A stretch of DNA of 64,000 nt, from assembly GCA_018175275.1 (NCBI GenBank), contig GCA_018175275.1_4531.1, one strand, 5' to 3'. The notes under the pieces are model-generated. The model was not told the DNA's origin. It did not search any database and worked only from the letters and a program-made list of their open reading frames with translations. The position numbers and the translations under genes were made by a program. The DNA is from a phage. Below are positions 5,914 through 11,936 of the stretch, piece by piece. The number at the start of each line of letters is the position of its first letter. The first letter of the stretch is position 1.

Positions 5914-7989
5914 TTATCTTTTACGGACACTATACGGTTGGTGAAATCCGCTGTTCATTCTACTGTATCCTGTAGGAGCATTTGTTGTTGCAGGGATAGC
6001 TACTGCCTTGAAAGTATTCTCTTTTGACAGAGTATTGAAACAAGAAGCAGCAGCATCGGGAATGTCATCTTTAATAGTGGCTGTAGATCTTTCACCATTG
6101 AAAGATTCCAATTCTTTATAAAAGTGGGTTAGAGTTTCCACATTAGGGAAAGAATCTTCAACAATATAAACAAAACCATTTTGACACGCACTACTAAAAG
6201 GCATAAAACGCTGAAGCTTTTTCTTGTTACCTGGCATAGCATCTGGTTTAACAACAAAACCTTCTAGAATAAGTTTCTTTGCAGACTCTGTATATTCTAT
6301 TGTCCCAGCGCCAGATGGGTCTTTAGGAAGCACTACTGTAACTTCTGGTCCATCAATCTTACATTGATTAAGAATCAGATTATCCCTTTCCCCAGGTAGT
6401 CTTCTAAACCTTCCGAAAATTTTACTTTTCTCATCCACAGCGTCATAGTCATAGTCACCAAAGATGTAGATATTACCATCTTGATCTTTACCCATTTTGA
6501 CAGACGTTGTATAGTCTGGATAACGATAAGTTTCTGTAGGAACTGAAACAGCTTTATCCCAGGCTCGCATTAGTTTAAGATTGTTAGGAACATCTTTATA
6601 AGATATTTTATGTAACCATTCACGTTGAAAGAAAGATTCTTTCTGAATACGTGCAAACCAACAACCATCCAGAAGCTGTGCTCTTTTAATTGCTGTTTGT
6701 GATTTAAGCTGTGCTAAGTAATTAGGGTTAAGCCTAATCAGTTCTGGGTTATCAAATATTGTCCCACCAATAAATACGAAAGTTTGTGGTTCAATAACAA
6801 CTGTCTCCCCTGTATTAGGGTTTTCCATGAAACAGTTTTCTGGATATTTTTCTTTCAGTTCTTCAGGTGTGTCAGCAAAAACAGGTTCATCGTTAACAAT
6901 GATGAAATATTTTTGTTTACCACACATATCTTCTCTAGGATAACCACCCTCATCAAGATAAGGTAACACCCAATTCAAAACCCAACTATCTGCATCGGGG
7001 TTACATGTGCACAACATGAAGCTTGTTTCTGATTCTGAACGCATACGTCCCAGAAGATAGAGCATTTCATATTGCGTGAAGTGGGTTAACTCGTCAAAAC
7101 CTACCATTGAATACTGTGTACCCTGATGGTTTGTTTCTGCTGTTACGTTATCATTTTCCAAATGGTCGAATTTGAGGGTTCCACCACCAGTGGCTTCAAA
7201 AATGATATCCATTGTACTTTCTTTTACGTGCGGTTGTAAAGGAAGATACAAACGTTTTGCTTCTGTAAACAGACCACCTGGTTTACGGTGAGCAGTGGTG
7301 TTCTTACGGAAAAGTATTCCACCAAACAAAGGATCTTTGTAGGCGTATTTTAAAGCTTTCAGCAATAGCAGACGAGACTTGCCGCTATTCCCAGTAACGA
7401 AGCAGTGATCGCCACGTCTAAAGACAATATAGCTGCTTGGAGTCTCAAAACAATATTTCTTATCATCTGTTGAAATAACCTCGTGTATTTTTAAGTAAGT
7501 GCTCTTTTTACCAGGTATGTTAAAAGGAACACGTTTACCGAATGGATTTTCTACATAACCTTGAAGGGGTTTTCCTATTTGCTGTAATGCAATAAGATCT
7601 CCTACAAGAATCTCAAAATGTTTCTTTGATTTCTTTTTCTTATAGAATACAAAACGGTGTTCCATACTAAGTTCTTGGAACAACCCTACACCATTTGTTA
7701 TTCTGTATAGGTTATCTCCATTTAAATCGTATTCTACAAAATAAGGTGTTACCAATTCTAAACGCTTATTCTTAGGGTTGTATTGGTAAATATCTTCTCC
7801 CGAATATTCACTAATCTGTCTCCAACCATCTTTTGTAAGATATTCCGTTTCAGCAGAAACACATCCAGCGGCACCACCATAAATCATAACTTCTGGCATT
7901 AAATCCATTGCAAGAGTCTGTTTACCTGGTTGAGCCTTTACTTCAATATCTACTCCAGCTAAACTACCTGCTGCCTTTTTCTTTGCCAC
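5914..7989 (-). CDS. terL: terminase large subunit, interrupted by a mini-intein
   Basis: 691 aa; Walker B-like VGFDELTHF and downstream LCTCNPDADSW; N-terminal GGAAG and GKSR halves of a P-loop separated by a 159-aa insert with intein block A/B signatures. Confidence 0.6.
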   Translation of the reverse strand: MAKKKAAGSLAGVDIEVKAQPGKQTLAMDLMPEVMIYGGAAGCVSAETEYLTKDGWRQISEYSGEDIYQYNPKNKRLELVTPYFVEYDLNGDNLYRITNGVGLFQELSMEHRFVFYKKKKSKKHFEILVGDLIALQQIGKPLQGYVENPFGKRVPFNIPGKKSTYLKIHEVISTDDKKYCFETPSSYIVFRRGDHCFVTGNSGKSRLLLLKALKYAYKDPLFGGILFRKNTTAHRKPGGLFTEAKRLYLPLQPHVKESTMDIIFEATGGGTLKFDHLENDNVTAETNHQGTQYSMVGFDELTHFTQYEMLYLLGRMRSESETSFMLCTCNPDADSWVLNWVLPYLDEGGYPREDMCGKQKYFIIVNDEPVFADTPEELKEKYPENCFMENPNTGETVVIEPQTFVFIGGTIFDNPELIRLNPNYLAQLKSQTAIKRAQLLDGCWFARIQKESFFQREWLHKISYKDVPNNLKLMRAWDKAVSVPTETYRYPDYTTSVKMGKDQDGNIYIFGDYDYDAVDEKSKIFGRFRRLPGERDNLILNQCKIDGPEVTVVLPKDPSGAGTIEYTESAKKLILEGFVVKPDAMPGNKKKLQRFMPFSSACQNGFVYIVEDSFPNVETLTHFYKELESFNGERSTATIKDDIPDAAASCFNTLSKENTFKAVAIPATTNAPTGYSRMNSGFHQPYSVRKR
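7387..7863 (-). other. candidate mini-intein (Hint domain) within terL
   Basis: insert begins Cys (CVSAETEYLTKDGWRQISEY, block A-like), contains LSMEHRFVF (block B-like S/T-x-x-H), ends ...VTGN followed by Ser; excision gives YGGAAG|SGKSRLL = GxxxxGKS. Confidence 0.5.
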
Positions 7990-7998
7990 ATTCCCTCC

Positions 7999-8343
7999 TT
8001 ATTCAGAAATAATACCTTTCTCTTGCAGTGTTTTAATATATGTTTGTAAACCTAAAACCTTTCGTCTATCTTGCTCCCAAAGAGCATTGTTTTGAGTTTG
8101 GTTGTTAACAACTTCAGATCTACTAACCCCTTTTGCAATTTGATTTTTAGTGTATGGCACAGGTGTCGATACTTTATCCATCAAATCAGAATCTGGACCT
8201 CTAACCTTTTCTATTGCTACGGCCTTACACTCATCAATAAGAACTGGGGAAACTTTTGTTGATGATGAACAACCCGTCATCATTAGGGGCAAAGCAAGAC
8301 ATACTGCCAGAATTAGTTTTTGCATAATTCGTTGTATCCTCAT
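7999..8343 (-). CDS. putative o-spanin (Rz1-like outer-membrane lipoprotein)
   Basis: 114 aa; signal peptide plus lipobox-like LMMTGC; overlaps the 3' part of the Rz-like gene in another frame. Confidence 0.5.
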   Translation of the reverse strand: MRIQRIMQKLILAVCLALPLMMTGCSSSTKVSPVLIDECKAVAIEKVRGPDSDLMDKVSTPVPYTKNQIAKGVSRSEVVNNQTQNNALWEQDRRKVLGLQTYIKTLQEKGIISE

Positions 8344-8626
8344 TGATCATTTGTTTCTTCTTCTCTAAATCTGCTTTTAATTGTGCATTGTTTTTAGACA
8401 AGCTATTTATTTGGGTATTTAATAATGCTCTTTCTTCATCTGCTCTTTTTTGAAGAACATTAAAATCCTGTTTTGCTTTTGCTTGGGCTGCTTGATATAA
8501 TTGTGTTTGATAGGCAACACCATCTTTGTAGCCAGACTCACGTATCTTGTTATAAGCAAACATTCCGGCAAAAATAAGAACAACAATTAAAACAAAACCT
8601 AACACAGTTTTAGTCTTTAGATTCAT
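8234..8626 (-). CDS. putative i-spanin (Rz-like)
   Basis: 130 aa; N-terminal transmembrane helix (VLGFVLIVVLIFAGMFAY) followed by Gln/Ala/Lys-rich coiled coil; overlaps the lipoprotein ORF. Confidence 0.5.
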   Translation of the reverse strand: MNLKTKTVLGFVLIVVLIFAGMFAYNKIRESGYKDGVAYQTQLYQAAQAKAKQDFNVLQKRADEERALLNTQINSLSKNNAQLKADLEKKKQMINEDTTNYAKTNSGSMSCFAPNDDGLFIINKSFPSSY

Positions 8627-9488: not shown

Positions 9489-9567
9489 TGGAGGCGGGAA
9501 TTGGATTTGAACCAATGATCTCCAGCATATGAAACTGGCGAGGACGACCAGACTCCTCTATCCCGCT
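9489..9567 (-). tRNA. tRNA-Met(CAT): tRNA-Met/Ile2 (CAT)
   Basis: acceptor AGCGGGA/TCCCGCC (1:72 mismatch), D-stem GAGG/CCTC, anticodon loop TT-CAT-AT, T-arm ATTGG-TTCAAAT-CCAAT, CCA encoded. Confidence 0.5.
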
Positions 9568-9645
9568 ATTATGTATCCCGTGCTGGATTCGAACCAGCGT
9601 CACAATAAATTGTGGATCTCTTATCCTGTAAGTCTAACGGGAAAC
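9568..9645 (-). tRNA. tRNA-like element, anticodon arm not resolvable (possible degenerate tRNA)
   Basis: canonical T-arm GCTGG-TTCGAAT-CCAGC and 6/7 acceptor complementarity, but no canonical 7-nt anticodon loop found by eye. Confidence 0.25.
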
Positions 9646-9719
9646 TGGTTGTTTCGACAAGAATCGAACTTGTATCTCACGATTATCAGTCGTGGGTTCT
9701 ACCATTGAACTACGAAACA
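9646..9719 (-). tRNA. tRNA-Ile(GAT): tRNA-Ile (GAT)
   Basis: acceptor TGTTTCG/CGAAACA, D-stem GTTC/GAAC, anticodon stem CACGA/TCGTG with loop CT-GAT-AA, T-arm ACAAG-TTCGATT-CTTGT, CCA encoded. Confidence 0.7.
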
Positions 9720-9782
9720 TTTAAAAGAATATCTCACGTCTGATACAGACTAACCTTTTGTCTGACGCATGAAATATTTAAT

Positions 9783-9859
9783 TGGTCGGAATTGCAGGAT
9801 TCGAACCTGCGACCCTACGCTCCCAAAGCGTATGCTCTACCAAACTGAGCTAAATTCCG
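9783..9859 (-). tRNA. tRNA-Pro(TGG): tRNA-Pro (TGG)
   Basis: acceptor CGGAATT/AATTCCG, D-stem GCTC/GAGC, anticodon stem TACGC/GCGTA with loop TT-TGG-GA, T-arm GCAGG-TTCGAAT-CCTGC; 5' end overlaps the stop of the HNH gene. Confidence 0.7.
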
Positions 9860-10368
9860 TTATTAATGTGCTTCCATGTGGTGTAAGTAACAATATCCTG
9901 TATTGTCCATCTTGAAACTTCATACTTTTTTGCCAATGCTCGTTGACTAATTTTAGTAGTCTCATACTCCATACGGATTTGAATAACATCTTTTTCTGAT
10001 AACTTGGCTTTATTATTTTCTTCCCCTTTAGGATTAACAAGTAATCCTGTGCTAACAGCGTGTGTCATATTCTCATGCTGTGTCGCCCACTCCACGTTAT
10101 CCTTGTGGTTGTTAAGCTTGTTACCATCTTTGTGATTAACAGATTTCTTGTTTTCAGGATTAGGATGAAAAGCTTTACAAACCAAACGGTGAATCTTAAA
10201 ACAAATACTTTTTCCTTTTCTACCGCCAATTTTTGTTGCGTGGGTATAGTAACCTGTTTTAGATATGGTTTGGGATAGTATCTTATTAGTTCTCTTACTT
10301 CTTAATCTTCCGAGGTCACTTATTTGGAAGTAATTCTCATAACCAGCTACATCACGCCATTCTTCCAT
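9850..10368 (-). CDS. HNH homing endonuclease (NUMOD4-like N-terminus) inside the tRNA cluster
   Basis: 172 aa; N-terminal EEWRDVAGYENYFQISDLGRLRS; HNH core HRLVCKAFHPNPENKKSVNHKDGNKLNNHKDNVEWATQHEN; AAGGAGG RBS. Confidence 0.6.
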   Translation of the reverse strand: MEEWRDVAGYENYFQISDLGRLRSKRTNKILSQTISKTGYYTHATKIGGRKGKSICFKIHRLVCKAFHPNPENKKSVNHKDGNKLNNHKDNVEWATQHENMTHAVSTGLLVNPKGEENNKAKLSEKDVIQIRMEYETTKISQRALAKKYEVSRWTIQDIVTYTTWKHINNGI

Positions 10369-10494
10369 TTATACCTCCTTATACCTGAATAAAACAATAA
10401 ACCATTTAATGAAGGGCAACCAGAAGAAGTGTGAGAGAAGGAGAAAACCATGAGTAAAAGAGAAAGTTTTCTGGCAACCCTTTATTAAATAATT

Positions 10495-10571
10495 TGGAGC
10501 GTTATATCGGATTCGAACCGATGCCACCGACTTGGAAGGACGGGATGCTGAACCGCTAACACTAATAACGC
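10495..10571 (-). tRNA. tRNA-Gly(TCC): tRNA-Gly (TCC)
   Basis: perfect acceptor GCGTTAT/ATAACGC, anticodon loop CT-TCC-AA, T-arm ATCGG-TTCGAAT-CCGAT, CCA encoded; D-arm slightly irregular. Confidence 0.6.
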
Positions 10572-10588
10572 TTTGTATATATATATTT

Positions 10589-10618
10589 ACTATACTACAT
10601 TTTACTATCGAATGTCAA
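10589..10618 (-). promoter_or_regulatory. sigma70-like promoter (TTGACA-N18-TATAGT) driving tRNA-Gly
   Basis: minus-strand TTGACA (plus 10613-10618) and TATAGT (plus 10589-10594), about 20 nt upstream of the tRNA 5' end. Confidence 0.5.
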
Positions 10619-10893
10619 TAGTTATTTAATAGGTGGGACAGTGACGAGTATCCCTTTGGGTGACTAGCCCTACGTTCGGTAAGCTAACTTAAAATAATAC
10701 AAAACCAAAGTCAAATATTATTCTTCGTTGCTGTCGATGGGAGAGCCGCTTCTCATTTTGCCCCATCCAACCCTACTCCGGTCAAGTTTCGGGTGACTCT
10801 TTTTGTGATCAACACAATACTAAGAACACTGTCTTTCGAGCAGACCTTGTGCACAGGATACGACGATCAATCACAGTGCTCTTAATGTTGTGT

Positions 10894-10968
10894 TGGTGCT
10901 CCCACACTGAATCGAACAGAGATCCACGGATTACAAAACCGTTGTAATAGCCATTATACTATAGGAGC
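10894..10968 (-). tRNA. tRNA-Thr(TGT): tRNA-Thr (TGT)
   Basis: acceptor GCTCCTA/TGGGAGC (one G-U), 3-bp D-stem, anticodon stem ACGG/CCGT with loop TT-TGT-AA, T-loop TTCGATT, CCA encoded. Confidence 0.5.
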
Positions 10969-10973
10969 AATGC

Positions 10974-11051
10974 TGGGACTCGGCAGGATTCGATACCTGC
11001 AATTCCAGAAGCCTATTGGCGACTGGGGGTTTACCTTAACTCTACAAGTCC
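10974..11051 (-). tRNA. tRNA-like element with 8-nt T-loop and non-canonical anticodon region
   Basis: T-arm GCAGG-TATCGAAT-CCTGC and acceptor complementarity GGACTTG/CGAGTCC; central region forms an extended hairpin instead of a standard anticodon arm. Confidence 0.25.
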
Positions 11052-11058
11052 ATAATTC

Positions 11059-11144
11059 TGGCGATGAGTATAGGATTCGAACCTATATTGTTCTTTCGAA
11101 CACGGATTAACAGTCCGCCGCTTAAACCATTCAGCCAACTCATC
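11059..11144 (-). tRNA. tRNA-Asn(GTT): tRNA-Asn (GTT) with unusually long variable region
   Basis: perfect acceptor GATGAGT/ACTCATC; anticodon arm GCGGA-CTGTTAA-TCCGT; about 14-nt variable hairpin GTTC-GAAA-GAAC; T-arm ATAGG-TTCGAAT-CCTAT. Confidence 0.5.
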
Positions 11145-11150
11145 TTAATT

Positions 11151-11238
11151 TGGTGGTGAGTGATGGAGTCGAACCACCCGAATCGCAATGATAACAGATT
11201 TACAGTCTGCCCCGCTACCCCTACGGAATTAACTCACC
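11151..11238 (-). tRNA. tRNA-Tyr(GTA): tRNA-Tyr (GTA), type II
   Basis: perfect acceptor GGTGAGT/ACTCACC, anticodon stem GCAGA/TCTGT with loop CT-GTA-AA, long variable arm, T-loop TTCGACT, CCA encoded. Confidence 0.6.
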
Positions 11239-11368
11239 TAAATACTAATATTTAAATTCTTTTTAAAATAGCCAGTGTTCACACCACTAACTATGAGTTA
11301 TCGGTAAAGTGGTTACCGCCACTTGCCGAAGATTTACTCTGCTAAAGTAAGCTACATTAAAAAGAACT

Positions 11369-11454
11369 TGGCGGTAGATGTAGGACTCGAACCTACACGC
11401 CGTTTCCGACTACAGTTTAGCAAACTGTCGTGGCTACCATTTCACCAATCTACC
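11369..11454 (-). tRNA. tRNA-Ser(GCT): tRNA-Ser (GCT), type II
   Basis: perfect acceptor GGTAGAT/ATCTACC, anticodon stem ACAGT/ACTGT with loop TT-GCT-AA, long variable arm, T-arm GTAGG-TTCGAGT-CCTAC, CCA encoded. Confidence 0.7.
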
Positions 11455-11459
11455 TAATC

Positions 11460-11550
11460 TGGCGGAAGGAGGGAGAGTCGAACTCCCAAGGCTCTTTCAA
11501 GCTCGGCGGTTTTCAAGACCGTTTTCGTCGCCACATCGATTTGCCCTTCC
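11460..11550 (-). tRNA. tRNA-Ser(TGA): tRNA-Ser (TGA), type II
   Basis: acceptor GGAAGGG/TCCTTCC, anticodon loop CT-TGA-AA, long variable arm GAGCTTGAAAGAGCCTT, T-arm GGGAG-TTCGACT-CTCCC, CCA encoded. Confidence 0.65.
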
Positions 11551-11559
11551 ATACTTATA

Positions 11560-11588
11560 ATCTAACATAAAATAATGTTTGTTGTCAA
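11560..11588 (-). promoter_or_regulatory. sigma70-like promoter (CTATTGACA -35, weak -10) upstream of tRNA-Ser
   Basis: minus-strand TTGACA (plus 11583-11588); -10 candidate TAGATT at 18-nt spacing. Confidence 0.35.
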
Positions 11589-11784
11589 TAGTTTTTTAAA
11601 ACATTTTACCATGAATGGTGACTCCACCAACCCCCGTTCTCCACGAACGGTGCTCTTCGAGCATTTATGTCTTCTAATATAACCGTGGCCTTTGTTTATA
11701 ATGTCTGACATACTTGCCTCATTCTCTGCCACCATGATCAGTAGTGGGTTCAAATCACTTGAGCTAATTCATGTTAAAATGTTC

Positions 11785-11859
11785 TGGTGTCTTTACAAGG
11801 AATCGAACCTTGACTAAGAGTTTAGAAGACTCCTGTGCTATCCATTACACCATAAAGAC
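11785..11859 (-). tRNA. tRNA-Arg(TCT): tRNA-Arg (TCT)
   Basis: perfect acceptor GTCTTTA/TAAAGAC, D-stem GTGT/GCAC, anticodon stem GGAGT/ACTCT with loop CT-TCT-AA, T-arm CAAGG-TTCGATT-CCTTG, CCA encoded. Confidence 0.7.
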
Positions 11860-11861
11860 TT

Positions 11862-11936
11862 TGGTGGCCCTGGCTGGTTTCGATCCAGCTACCTATCGGT
11901 TATGAGCCGACAGCTCTCCCATTGAGCTACAGGGCC
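11862..11936 (-). tRNA. tRNA-Met(CAT): tRNA-Met or Ile2 (CAT)
   Basis: perfect acceptor GGCCCTG/CAGGGCC, D-stem GCTC/GAGC, anticodon stem GTCGG/CCGAT with loop CT-CAT-AA, T-arm GCTGG-ATCGAAA-CCAGC, CCA encoded; acceptor resembles E. coli tRNA-Ile2. Confidence 0.65.

What the first reader, a model, noticed from the sequence alone, without database searches (positions are those of the whole stretch)
7387..7863. Mini-intein splitting the Walker A P-loop of the large terminase
The terL ORF has a 159-residue insert beginning with Cys (CVSAETEYLTKDGWRQISEY, intein block A) and containing LSMEHRFVF (block B, S/T-x-x-H). Removing residues 43-201 joins ...MIYGGAAG to SGKSRLLLL, giving a canonical GxxxxGKS P-loop; the +1 residue is Ser and the insert's last residue is Asn. 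About 159 aa is mini-intein sized, with no homing-endonuclease domain. The penultimate residue is Gly rather than the usual His, so the C-terminal boundary and splicing competence are not certain.
Basis: partly seen in the sequence, partly recalled or inferred. Interest (0 to 1): 0.6.

Follow-up and report, generated by a model that had tools for sequence, protein, structure and literature searches.

The report
Self-splicing mini-intein in phage terminase
The DNA-packaging enzyme gene of this E. coli phage is interrupted, in its ATP-binding loop, by a small self-excising protein element (an intein) that standard annotation tools miss; inteins at such sites are a known phenomenon, and this one belongs to an unusual, little-studied branch.

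Summary
Window 7387-7863 (- strand) encodes 159 residues inserted between G42 and S202 of the large terminase (TerL) of a phAPEC8-like E. coli myophage. Intein-free homologues, including Klebsiella phage FBKp34 from the same subfamily, read IYGGAAG|SGKSRL straight across the junction. The predicted structure (pLDDT 92) matches only intein, BIL and Hedgehog (HINT) folds. Relatives of this TerL carry 146-aa and roughly 246-330-aa versions at the same site, the longest with a weakly LAGLIDADG-like central domain.

The penultimate Gly is not a defect. In 210 copies of this intein family, Cys1 and the terminal Asn are present in all 210, Gly before the Asn in 207, and a Cys at block F position 4 in 208. 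The closest solved relative is the AceL NrdHF intein (profile E 2.7e-13). It ends TGN|S, splices within minutes, and loses activity when that Gly is changed to His.

The intein's protein sequence has diverged about as slowly as the essential extein.

Verdict: a functional, vertically inherited, unannotated mini-intein, so a new member of a known kind. Whether Cys1, Cys138 or both start the reaction cannot be decided from sequence.

The parts
5914..7989 (-). terL precursor ORF (691 aa, 78.7 kDa, GTG start preceded by AAGGAGG)
   Evidence: ORF list. PHROG 979 terminase large subunit, E 1.5e-216. Pfam Terminase_6N on residues 202-460. 98-99.6% nucleotide identity to the terL genes of phAPEC8-like phages.
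7864..7989 (-). N-extein, TerL residues 1-42, ending ...MIYGGAAG (first half of Walker A)
   Evidence: Aligns without a gap to intein-free homologues up to G42.
7387..7863 (-). Mini-intein, 159 aa (18.6 kDa), TerL residues 43-201
   Evidence: Absent from intein-free homologues. AF2 model has pLDDT 92.4 and a HINT fold. Family HMM score 140 bits.
7822..7863 (-). Block A (intein residues 1-14, CVSAETEYLTKDGW), with Cys1 at 7861-7863
   Evidence: Cys1 is present in 210 of 210 family copies. T6, E7, G13 and W14 are nearly invariant.
7645..7686 (-). Block B (intein residues 60-73, GLFQELSMEHRFVF): Ser66 (B:7), His69 (B:10), Arg70 (B:11), Phe71 (B:12)
   Evidence: His B:10 is present in 210 of 210 copies and Ser/Thr at B:7 in 199 of 210. 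This block aligns to SPNHRMIY of AceL NrdHF.
7414..7461 (-). Block F (intein residues 135-150, KKYCFETPSSYIVFRR), with Cys138 (F:4) at 7450-7452 and Arg149
   Evidence: Cys F:4 is present in 208 of 210 copies and Arg149 in 204 of 210. Cys138 aligns to AceL NrdHF Cys124, the proven branch nucleophile (PMC7891396).
7384..7407 (-). Block G (HCFVTGN plus Ser+1): Thr157 (G:5), Gly158 (G:6), Asn159 (G:7, 7387-7389), Ser202 (+1, 7384-7386)
   Evidence: Thr/Ser at G:5 in 196 of 210 copies, Gly G:6 in 207, Asn in 210; the +1 residue is S, C or T in all 210.
5914..7386 (-). C-extein, TerL residues 202-691 plus stop, starting SGKSRLLLL (second half of Walker A), followed by the ATPase and nuclease domains
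   Evidence: Terminase_6N spans residues 202-460. S202, G203, K204 and S205 are invariant in 25 homologues.
7090..7107 (-). Probable Walker B (MVGFDE, TerL residues 295-300)
   Evidence: D299 and E300 are invariant in alignment A1. The assignment as Walker B is an inference from the hydrophobic-stretch-then-DE pattern.

Best explanation
Window 7387-7863 (- strand) encodes a functional 159-aa mini-intein with no homing endonuclease. It sits between G42 and S202 of the large terminase, inside the Walker A motif G-A-A-G|S-G-K-S. The 78.7 kDa precursor cannot bind ATP normally. The insert folds as a HINT domain, cuts itself out and joins the two halves, giving a 60.1 kDa TerL with an intact P-loop plus a free 18.6 kDa intein. 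[quoted passage not shown] The intein belongs to a very large clade, mostly in phage and metagenome sequences, whose members typically sit at the G|[S/C/T]GK[S/T] position of P-loop NTPases. In this phage subfamily it has lost its endonuclease and is inherited vertically together with terL.
For: Precise presence or absence: FBKp34 (same subfamily) and metagenomic homologues at 61-64% identity read IYGGAAG|SGKSRL. Fold: the AF2 model has pLDDT 92.4 and pTM 0.83, and every significant PDB match is an intein, BIL or Hedgehog domain, with the AceL NrdHF intein (6zgq) best at TM 0.68-0.70. Sequence: family profiles hit 6zgq at E 6e-8 and 2.7e-13, against 1.3e-3 for the next PDB intein; the restored AceL sequence aligns nearly end to end at 65.5 bits, with Cys124 on Cys138 and TGN on TGN. 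Catalytic residues are conserved across 210 copies. Host spectrum is typical for inteins: primase-helicases, RNR, RtcB, PhoH and terminases, with up to 5 copies per protein. Versions with a central domain that weakly matches LAGLIDADG_3 occupy the same TerL site. Selection: intein dN is 0.09-0.14 against extein dN 0.08-0.12, with dS saturated. More than 130 isolated, viable phages carry it, and their packaging ATPase needs an intact Walker A (established knowledge of P-loop NTPases). AceL NrdHF, with the same TGN|S end and no F:13 or G:6 His, splices within minutes (PMC7891396).
Against: No experiment shows splicing of this protein. No Pfam or NCBIfam intein model detects the insert, so membership rests on fold, custom profiles and motifs. 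The penultimate His and the block F His, which assist Asn cyclisation in most inteins, are both absent. The chemical route (Cys1 or Cys138) is undetermined. The dN/dS ratios are imprecise because dS is saturated. The 210 copies are the best-scoring hits to a profile that already contains these residues, so their invariance is somewhat inflated.
Confidence: 0.87

Rival explanations
1. The intein splices, but by a class 3-type route. Cys138 (F:4) attacks the G42-C1 bond directly and forms a block F branched thioester before transfer to Ser+1. Cys1 is then not the initiating nucleophile, or acts only in a relay. This differs from the best explanation only in chemistry.
For: Cys F:4 is present in 208 of 210 copies, Thr/Ser at G:5 in 196 of 210, and Ser/Thr at +1 in 157 of 210. 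All three are class 3 signatures (PMC2807308; PMC5222942). AceL NrdHF scores 65.5 bits against the family model, with its Cys aligned to Cys138. It has Ala1 and demonstrably uses that Cys, whose modelled thiol lies 3.0 A from the N-scissile carbonyl.
Against: Cys1 is present in 210 of 210 copies, which argues that it is needed. There is no Trp at B:12 (Phe71; V/F/I/M/L across the family). [quoted passage not shown]
Confidence: 0.3
2. The insert is a decayed, splicing-dead intein remnant that TerL tolerates or works around.
For: There is no homing endonuclease, no penultimate His and no Pfam intein hit. Dead inteins are known, for example Arth_1007 (PMC3196547).
Against: It splits GxxxxGK[ST], which an ATPase cannot tolerate. 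All catalytic positions are intact and conserved. Intein dN is as low as extein dN across genera. Arth_1007 sits in a dispensable pseudogene, whereas this gene is the only terL of viable phages.
Confidence: 0.04
3. The segment is a native accessory domain of this TerL lineage, a structural insertion rather than an intein.
For: The PHROG 979 terminase profile covers the insert, and database annotations call the whole ORF 'terminase large subunit'.
Against: PHROG 979 simply contains intein-bearing members. The same domain occurs in RNR, RtcB, PhoH and primase-helicases. The fold is HINT. Homologues lack it without any compensating residues.
Confidence: 0.02
4. Splicing is conditional. The two active-site cysteines (Cys1 and Cys138) form a reversible disulfide, so that TerL maturation, and therefore DNA packaging, is gated by redox state or timing.
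For: Two invariant cysteines lie at the catalytic centre (geometry inferred from AceL NrdHF). Oxidative-stress sensing is described for the class 3 Msm DnaBi1 intein (PMC6195587 abstract), and H2O2 inhibits N-cleavage by the MchDnaB1 intein (PMC7664689).
Against: There is no direct evidence. I had no access to model coordinates to measure the Cys-Cys distance. The E. coli cytoplasm is reducing.
Confidence: 0.1

Closest known systems
AceL NrdHF-1-1 split intein (PDB 6zgq; Hoffmann et al. 2020, PMC7891396)
   Same: It is the best structural and sequence match (Foldseek E 3.4e-6; profile E 2.7e-13; 65.5 bits nearly end to end). It shares Ser B:7, His B:10, Arg B:11, a non-Trp hydrophobic residue at B:12, Cys F:4, the T-G-N|S end, and the lack of both the F:13 and G:6 His. 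It appears to be of phage origin.
   Different: AceL is naturally split (98 + 48 aa) with a GIY-YIG endonuclease gene between the halves. It starts with Ala1, so it is obligately class 3, and it sits in an RNR beta subunit. The window intein is contiguous, starts with Cys, and sits in the TerL P-loop. It also has the family's Arg149, which AceL lacks.
Mycobacteriophage TerL P-loop inteins (TerL1-a and TerL1-b; Kelley et al. 2016, PMC5050341)
   Same: These are inteins in the Walker A loop of a phage large terminase. They were shown to splice, and splicing was argued to be required for ATPase and pentamer assembly.
   Different: The terminase family differs (Terminase_1 against Terminase_6N). 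The insertion point differs: the 'classic' site is between Lys and Thr, with a second site one residue away, whereas here it is G|SGKS, two residues before the Lys. Those inteins are standard class 1 or WCT class 3 types, and endonuclease activity was shown for TerL1-b.
Canonical class 3 (WCT) inteins, e.g. MP-Be DnaB, Msm DnaBi1, MchDnaB1
   Same: Cys at F:4, Thr at G:5 and Ser/Thr at +1. They favour P-loops of helicase-like ATPases, including terminases, and a phage origin has been proposed.
   Different: They lack the N-terminal nucleophile and have Trp at B:12 and usually His at G:6. The window intein has Cys1, Phe71 and Gly158. The PDB class 3 DnaB inteins match its model less well than AceL does (E 3e-3 to 3e-2).
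[quoted passage not shown]
   Same: An N-terminal Cys together with Cys at F:4. This is the default formal class for the window intein.
   Different: That category is described as polyphyletic. I could not read the primary paper, so I do not know whether members of this particular TGN clade were among those examined.

Membership tests
Intein (HINT protein-splicing domain) | In-frame insertion in a conserved host protein, precisely absent from close homologues | tested here: met
   FBKp34 and P0018-P0020 read IYGGAAG|SGKSRL with no gap and no extra residues.
Intein (HINT protein-splicing domain) | HINT fold | tested here: met
   AF2 pLDDT 92.4. All 11 PDB matches with E<=1e-3 are inteins, BIL or Hedgehog domains.
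Intein (HINT protein-splicing domain) | Block B His (B:10) with Thr/Ser at B:7 | tested here: met
   Ser66 and His69. His is present in 210 of 210 family copies.
Intein (HINT protein-splicing domain) | C-terminal Asn followed by Ser/Thr/Cys at +1 | tested here: met
   Asn159 | Ser202. Asn is present in 210 of 210 copies, and +1 is S (124), C (53) or T (33).
Intein (HINT protein-splicing domain) | Penultimate His (G:6); common but not obligatory | tested here: not met
   Gly158, and Gly in 207 of 210 copies. AceL NrdHF with Gly at this position splices, and its G145H mutant is dead.
Intein (HINT protein-splicing domain) | Demonstrated excision and extein ligation | not testable with these tools
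   Requires expression followed by western blot or MS.
Mini-intein (no homing endonuclease) | A single splicing domain of about 130-200 aa, with no endonuclease domain and no alternative-frame ORF | tested here: met
   159 aa in one compact domain. No other ORF of at least 60 aa lies inside 7387-7863. The longest versions at the same site (~326-328 aa) carry an extra ~170 aa that weakly matches LAGLIDADG_3.
Class 1 inteins | [quoted passage not shown] | tested here: met
   Cys1, present in 210 of 210 copies. Whether it actually acts as the nucleophile was not tested.
Class 3 inteins | No N-terminal nucleophile | tested here: not met
   Cys1 is present and invariant.
Class 3 inteins | Trp at B:12 | tested here: not met
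   Phe71. The family has V/F/I/M/L at this position. AceL NrdHF, a proven class 3 intein, also lacks the Trp (Met70).
Class 3 inteins | Cys at F:4 | tested here: met
   Cys138, present in 208 of 210 copies, aligned to AceL Cys124.
Class 3 inteins | Thr at G:5 and Ser/Thr at +1 | tested here: met
   Thr157 and Ser202.
Class 3 inteins | Block F branched thioester intermediate | not testable with these tools
   Needs C1A and C138A mutants and trapping of the intermediate.
AceL NrdHF-like clade | Significant sequence similarity plus a shared S..HR block B, C-[FL]-x-V-P block F and a TGN|S end | tested here: met
   E 2.7e-13; 65.5 bits over model positions 6-156.
AceL NrdHF-like clade | Split architecture and Ala1 | tested here: not met
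   The window intein is one contiguous ORF that starts with Cys.
Bacterial intein-like (BIL) domain | Lacks the +1 nucleophile and mainly cleaves rather than splices | tested here: not met
   Ser+1 is present, and the host P-loop is restored only by ligation.

The most novel reading that the evidence does not exclude
The window intein represents a very large, Pfam-invisible 'two-cysteine' intein clade (Cys1 + Cys F:4 + T-G-N) that sits mechanistically between class 1 and class 3. In this reading Cys138 is a true acyl carrier, either as a relay from Cys1 or as an alternative initiator. AceL NrdHF would then be a member that lost Cys1, which would make the class 3 mechanism at least biphyletic. 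The cysteine pair might also give redox control over terminase maturation and hence over DNA packaging.
Probability: 0.25. Interest if true: 0.6.

Novelty: new member of a known kind. Interest (0 to 1): 0.4.

Why it matters
Practical annotation: more than 130 sequenced Stephanstirmvirinae phages carry this intein, many of them phage-therapy candidates against E. coli and Klebsiella. In every record I opened it is labelled only 'terminase large subunit' or 'hypothetical protein'. The BASEL collection's table counts 0 inteins for a phage that has it. A 2024 paper states that no inteins have been reported in coliphages.

Effect on analyses: terL is widely used for phage phylogeny and for predicting the packaging mechanism. 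An unrecognised 159-aa insert distorts both alignments and structure models.

Mechanism and tools: this is a compact, naturally contiguous relative of the fast AceL NrdHF intein that works in E. coli infections, so it may be useful as a protein-engineering tool. It is also an accessible system for asking what a conserved block F cysteine does when Cys1 is also present.

The phenomenon itself, an intein in a terminase P-loop, is well known.

Tried and rejected
Searches that gave nothing useful:
- Pfam and NCBIfam scans of the insert and of larger relatives gave no intein or Hint hit. There was only a weak LAGLIDADG_3 match for the central domain of the larger forms.
- A single-sequence phmmer search against PDB gave nothing significant. 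Profiles were needed.
- The word-indexed protein search with the intein alone returned only five fragments.
- The same search with the AceL fragment returned only the PDB construct itself. That did at least supply its full sequence.

Things I could not do:
- Tori & Perler 2011 (PMC3133030) is not held. What I say about class 3 inteins that begin with Ser or Cys therefore rests on secondary citations.
- Model coordinates are not exposed, so I could not measure the Cys1-Cys138 distance.
- The dN/dS ratios are unreliable because dS is saturated, so I used only the comparison of dN between intein and extein.

Hypotheses considered and rejected:
- A shifted C-terminal boundary: no other boundary reproduces the intein-free sequence GGAAGSGKS.
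- A second copy of the family elsewhere in the window: none was found in a six-frame HMM scan.
- An endonuclease ORF in another reading frame within the intein: none of at least 60 aa.
- A native accessory domain or a dead remnant: see the rival explanations.
Full report
**1. The observation**

The only long ORF across the region is window 5914..7989 on the - strand. It is 691 aa with a GTG start preceded by AAGGAGG. It is the large terminase: PHROG 979, E 1.5e-216, and Pfam Terminase_6N, which matches only from residue 202 onward. At the nucleotide level the gene is 98-99.6% identical to terL of phAPEC8-like E. coli myophages (genus Phapecoctavirus, subfamily Stephanstirmvirinae).

Residues 43-201 map exactly to 7387..7863. 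The segment starts with Cys (TGT), contains LSMEHRFVF, and ends TGN followed by Ser. The finding's coordinates and sequence statements are all correct.

**2. It is a precise insertion**

I searched with the hypothetical spliced protein and found 1,974 homologues at E<=1e-10. The closest ones of 690-700 aa carry the insert. Homologues at 61-64% identity and 514-517 aa lack it, and so do many at about 50% identity. They read ...IYGGAAG|SGKSRL... with no gap and no extra residue.

One intein-free protein is 99.6% identical to TerL of Klebsiella phage vB_KpM_FBKp34, which is classified in the same subfamily. Its DNA reads GGT GCA GCA GGA | TCT GGT AAG TCA.

Other relatives have inteins of 146 aa, or of roughly 246-330 aa, at exactly the same site. 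The extra central ~170 aa of the longest versions gives weak LAGLIDADG_3 matches. The window copy is therefore a version of a mobile intein that has lost its endonuclease. No alternative-frame ORF lies inside it.

**3. It is a HINT domain**

With a 14-sequence alignment (A2), AlphaFold2 gives pLDDT 92.4 and pTM 0.83: a compact, mostly beta domain with one short helix. In a Foldseek search against the PDB, all 11 hits with E<=1e-3 and nearly all of the top 50 are inteins, bacterial intein-like domains or Hedgehog autoprocessing domains. The best hit is 6zgq, the AceL NrdHF class 3 split intein (E 3.4e-6, TM 0.68-0.70).

Pfam and NCBIfam intein models do not detect the insert. This explains why GenBank records label the ORF simply 'terminase large subunit' or 'hypothetical protein'.

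**4. The family**

An exhaustive profile search found 10,904 cluster representatives at E<=1e-3, 2,675 at E<=1e-10 and 151 at E<=1e-30. Hosts include Toprim/DnaB primase-helicases, the ribonucleotide reductase large subunit, RtcB, PhoH and other terminases, with up to five copies per protein. That is the classic intein host range (PMC4760082).

I aligned 210 full-length copies to the family model:

| Position | Window residue | Conservation in 210 copies |
|---|---|---|
| A:1 | Cys1 | Cys 210 |
| B:7 | Ser66 | Ser/Thr 199 |
| B:10 | His69 | His 210 |
| B:12 | Phe71 | V/F/I/M/L, never Trp |
| F:4 | Cys138 | Cys 208 |
| (block F) | Arg149 | Arg 204 |
| G:5 | Thr157 | Thr/Ser 196 |
| G:6 (penultimate) | Gly158 | Gly 207 |
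| G:7 | Asn159 | Asn 210 |
| +1 | Ser202 | S 124, C 53, T 33 |

In 113 of the 210 copies the intein sits directly before [S/C/T]GK[S/T]. That is the same P-loop position as in this TerL.

One caveat applies. These are the best-scoring hits to a profile that already contains these residues, so their invariance is somewhat inflated.

**5. The penultimate Gly**

Gly is the family norm. The solved AceL NrdHF intein is specifically related to this family. A profile of diverse mini-inteins (A3) hits it at E 2.7e-13, against 1.3e-3 for the next PDB intein. With its two mutated residues restored, its sequence aligns nearly end to end with the 210-copy model at 65.5 bits. In that alignment SPNHRM lies on SMEHRF, HCLSVP on the family's YCFtVP, and TGN on TGN.

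Hoffmann et al. report the following for that intein (PMC7891396):
- It lacks both the F:13 and the G:6 His.
- It splices nearly to completion within minutes.
- It is killed by the G145H mutation.
- It uses Arg69 (B:11) near the C-scissile carbonyl. The window intein has Arg70 at that position.

**6. Selection and history**

I compared the window with Justusliebigvirus JohannJBalmer, Citrobacter phage Tr1 and Klebsiella phage KP13-26. Synonymous sites are saturated (dS 1.3-2.2 over the intein). The intein's dN is 0.09-0.14 and the extein's is 0.08-0.12. Amino-acid identities are 79-87% for the intein and 86-90% for the extein. The intein is thus under purifying selection comparable to that on an essential enzyme, and it has co-diverged with its host gene.

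A tblastn search finds the intein in 147 phage records, 132 of them at 80% identity or more. Its GC content is slightly lower than that of the extein (0.342 against 0.386).

All these phages are viable isolates, and a P-loop ATPase cannot function with 159 residues inside GxxxxGK[ST]. Splicing is therefore a strong inference. It has not been demonstrated.

**7. Mechanism**

Shown:
- the insertion site;
- the fold;
- the conserved active-site residues;
- the homology to a biochemically proven splicing intein.

Inferred: the standard sequence of events, namely a (thio)ester at the N-junction, transfer to Ser+1, Asn159 cyclisation and an O-to-N shift.

Open: which cysteine starts the reaction. 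Cys1 is invariant, which points to class 1. Cys138 is also essentially invariant and aligns with the residue that AceL NrdHF, which has Ala1, uses as its branch nucleophile. In that structure the modelled thiol lies 3.0 A from the scissile carbonyl.

[quoted passage not shown] It fails two class 3 criteria, because it has an N-terminal nucleophile and has no Trp at B:12. It meets three others: Cys F:4, Thr G:5 and Ser+1. I put the class 3-like or relay route at about 0.3.

**8. Comparison with what is known, and novelty**

Inteins in phage terminases, including in the P-loop, are well documented and have been shown to splice (PMC5050341; PMC2807308). The site used here, G|SGKS, differs from the 'classic' Lys|Thr site described for mycobacteriophage TerL1-a.

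I found no paper describing this intein in Phapecoctavirus or Justusliebigvirus. The BASEL supplementary table lists 0 inteins for phage EmilieFrey, yet its bas61_0003 TerL contains the intein. A 2024 paper states that no inteins have been reported in coliphages.

I rate the finding as a new, unannotated member of a known kind, with moderate interest. The extra interest lies in the clade's unusual two-cysteine, TGN active site and its link to AceL NrdHF.

Noticed in passing
window 9492-11936 (- strand): A cluster of 10 tRNA genes lies about 1.5 kb upstream of terL (Rfam).
   Followed up: partly
window 9850-10368 (- strand): A free-standing homing-endonuclease-like ORF (172 aa; NUMOD4 + HNH_3) lies inside the tRNA cluster. 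Its 3' end overlaps the tRNA at 9786-9859 by 10 nt. It is not adjacent to terL, and nothing links it to the intein.
   Followed up: partly
window 7999-8343 and 8234-8626 (- strand): Two overlapping small ORFs lie immediately upstream of terL. They are in the position of the o-spanin and i-spanin genes annotated in BASEL relatives. The first encodes a lipoprotein-like signal (LALPLMMTGC).
   Followed up: no
P0126 (855-aa TerL homologue from the protein database), residues 38-362 and 461-798: A related TerL carries two inteins of this family. One is at the same P-loop site. The second is right after the Walker B region (GFDELTHY|C...SGN|TEYQ).
   Followed up: no
P0127, P0146, P0173, P0205 (2,200-2,600-aa metagenomic proteins): Very large proteins carry 3-5 copies of this intein family, some nearly back to back and separated by only 4-7 extein residues (e.g. 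...SGN SGYQ C...). I did not identify the host proteins.
   Followed up: no
L004 (Escherichia phage EmilieFrey, MZ501063) 676-2760: The BASEL supplementary table lists 0 inteins for this phage, although its TerL holds the same intein. Close relatives are listed with 1 or 2 inteins, so this phage group contains further, variable inteins that are not in the window's terL.
   Followed up: partly
window 7387-7863: The intein's GC content is 0.342, against 0.386 for the rest of terL and for the whole window. The difference is modest and I have no explanation for it.
   Followed up: no
phage records MG065656.1 and relatives: Records named 'Campylobacter phage C3' and similar, with C. jejuni given as host, carry a terL intein 86.8% identical to the window's, like the Justusliebigvirus coliphages. 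The host label looks doubtful.
   Followed up: no
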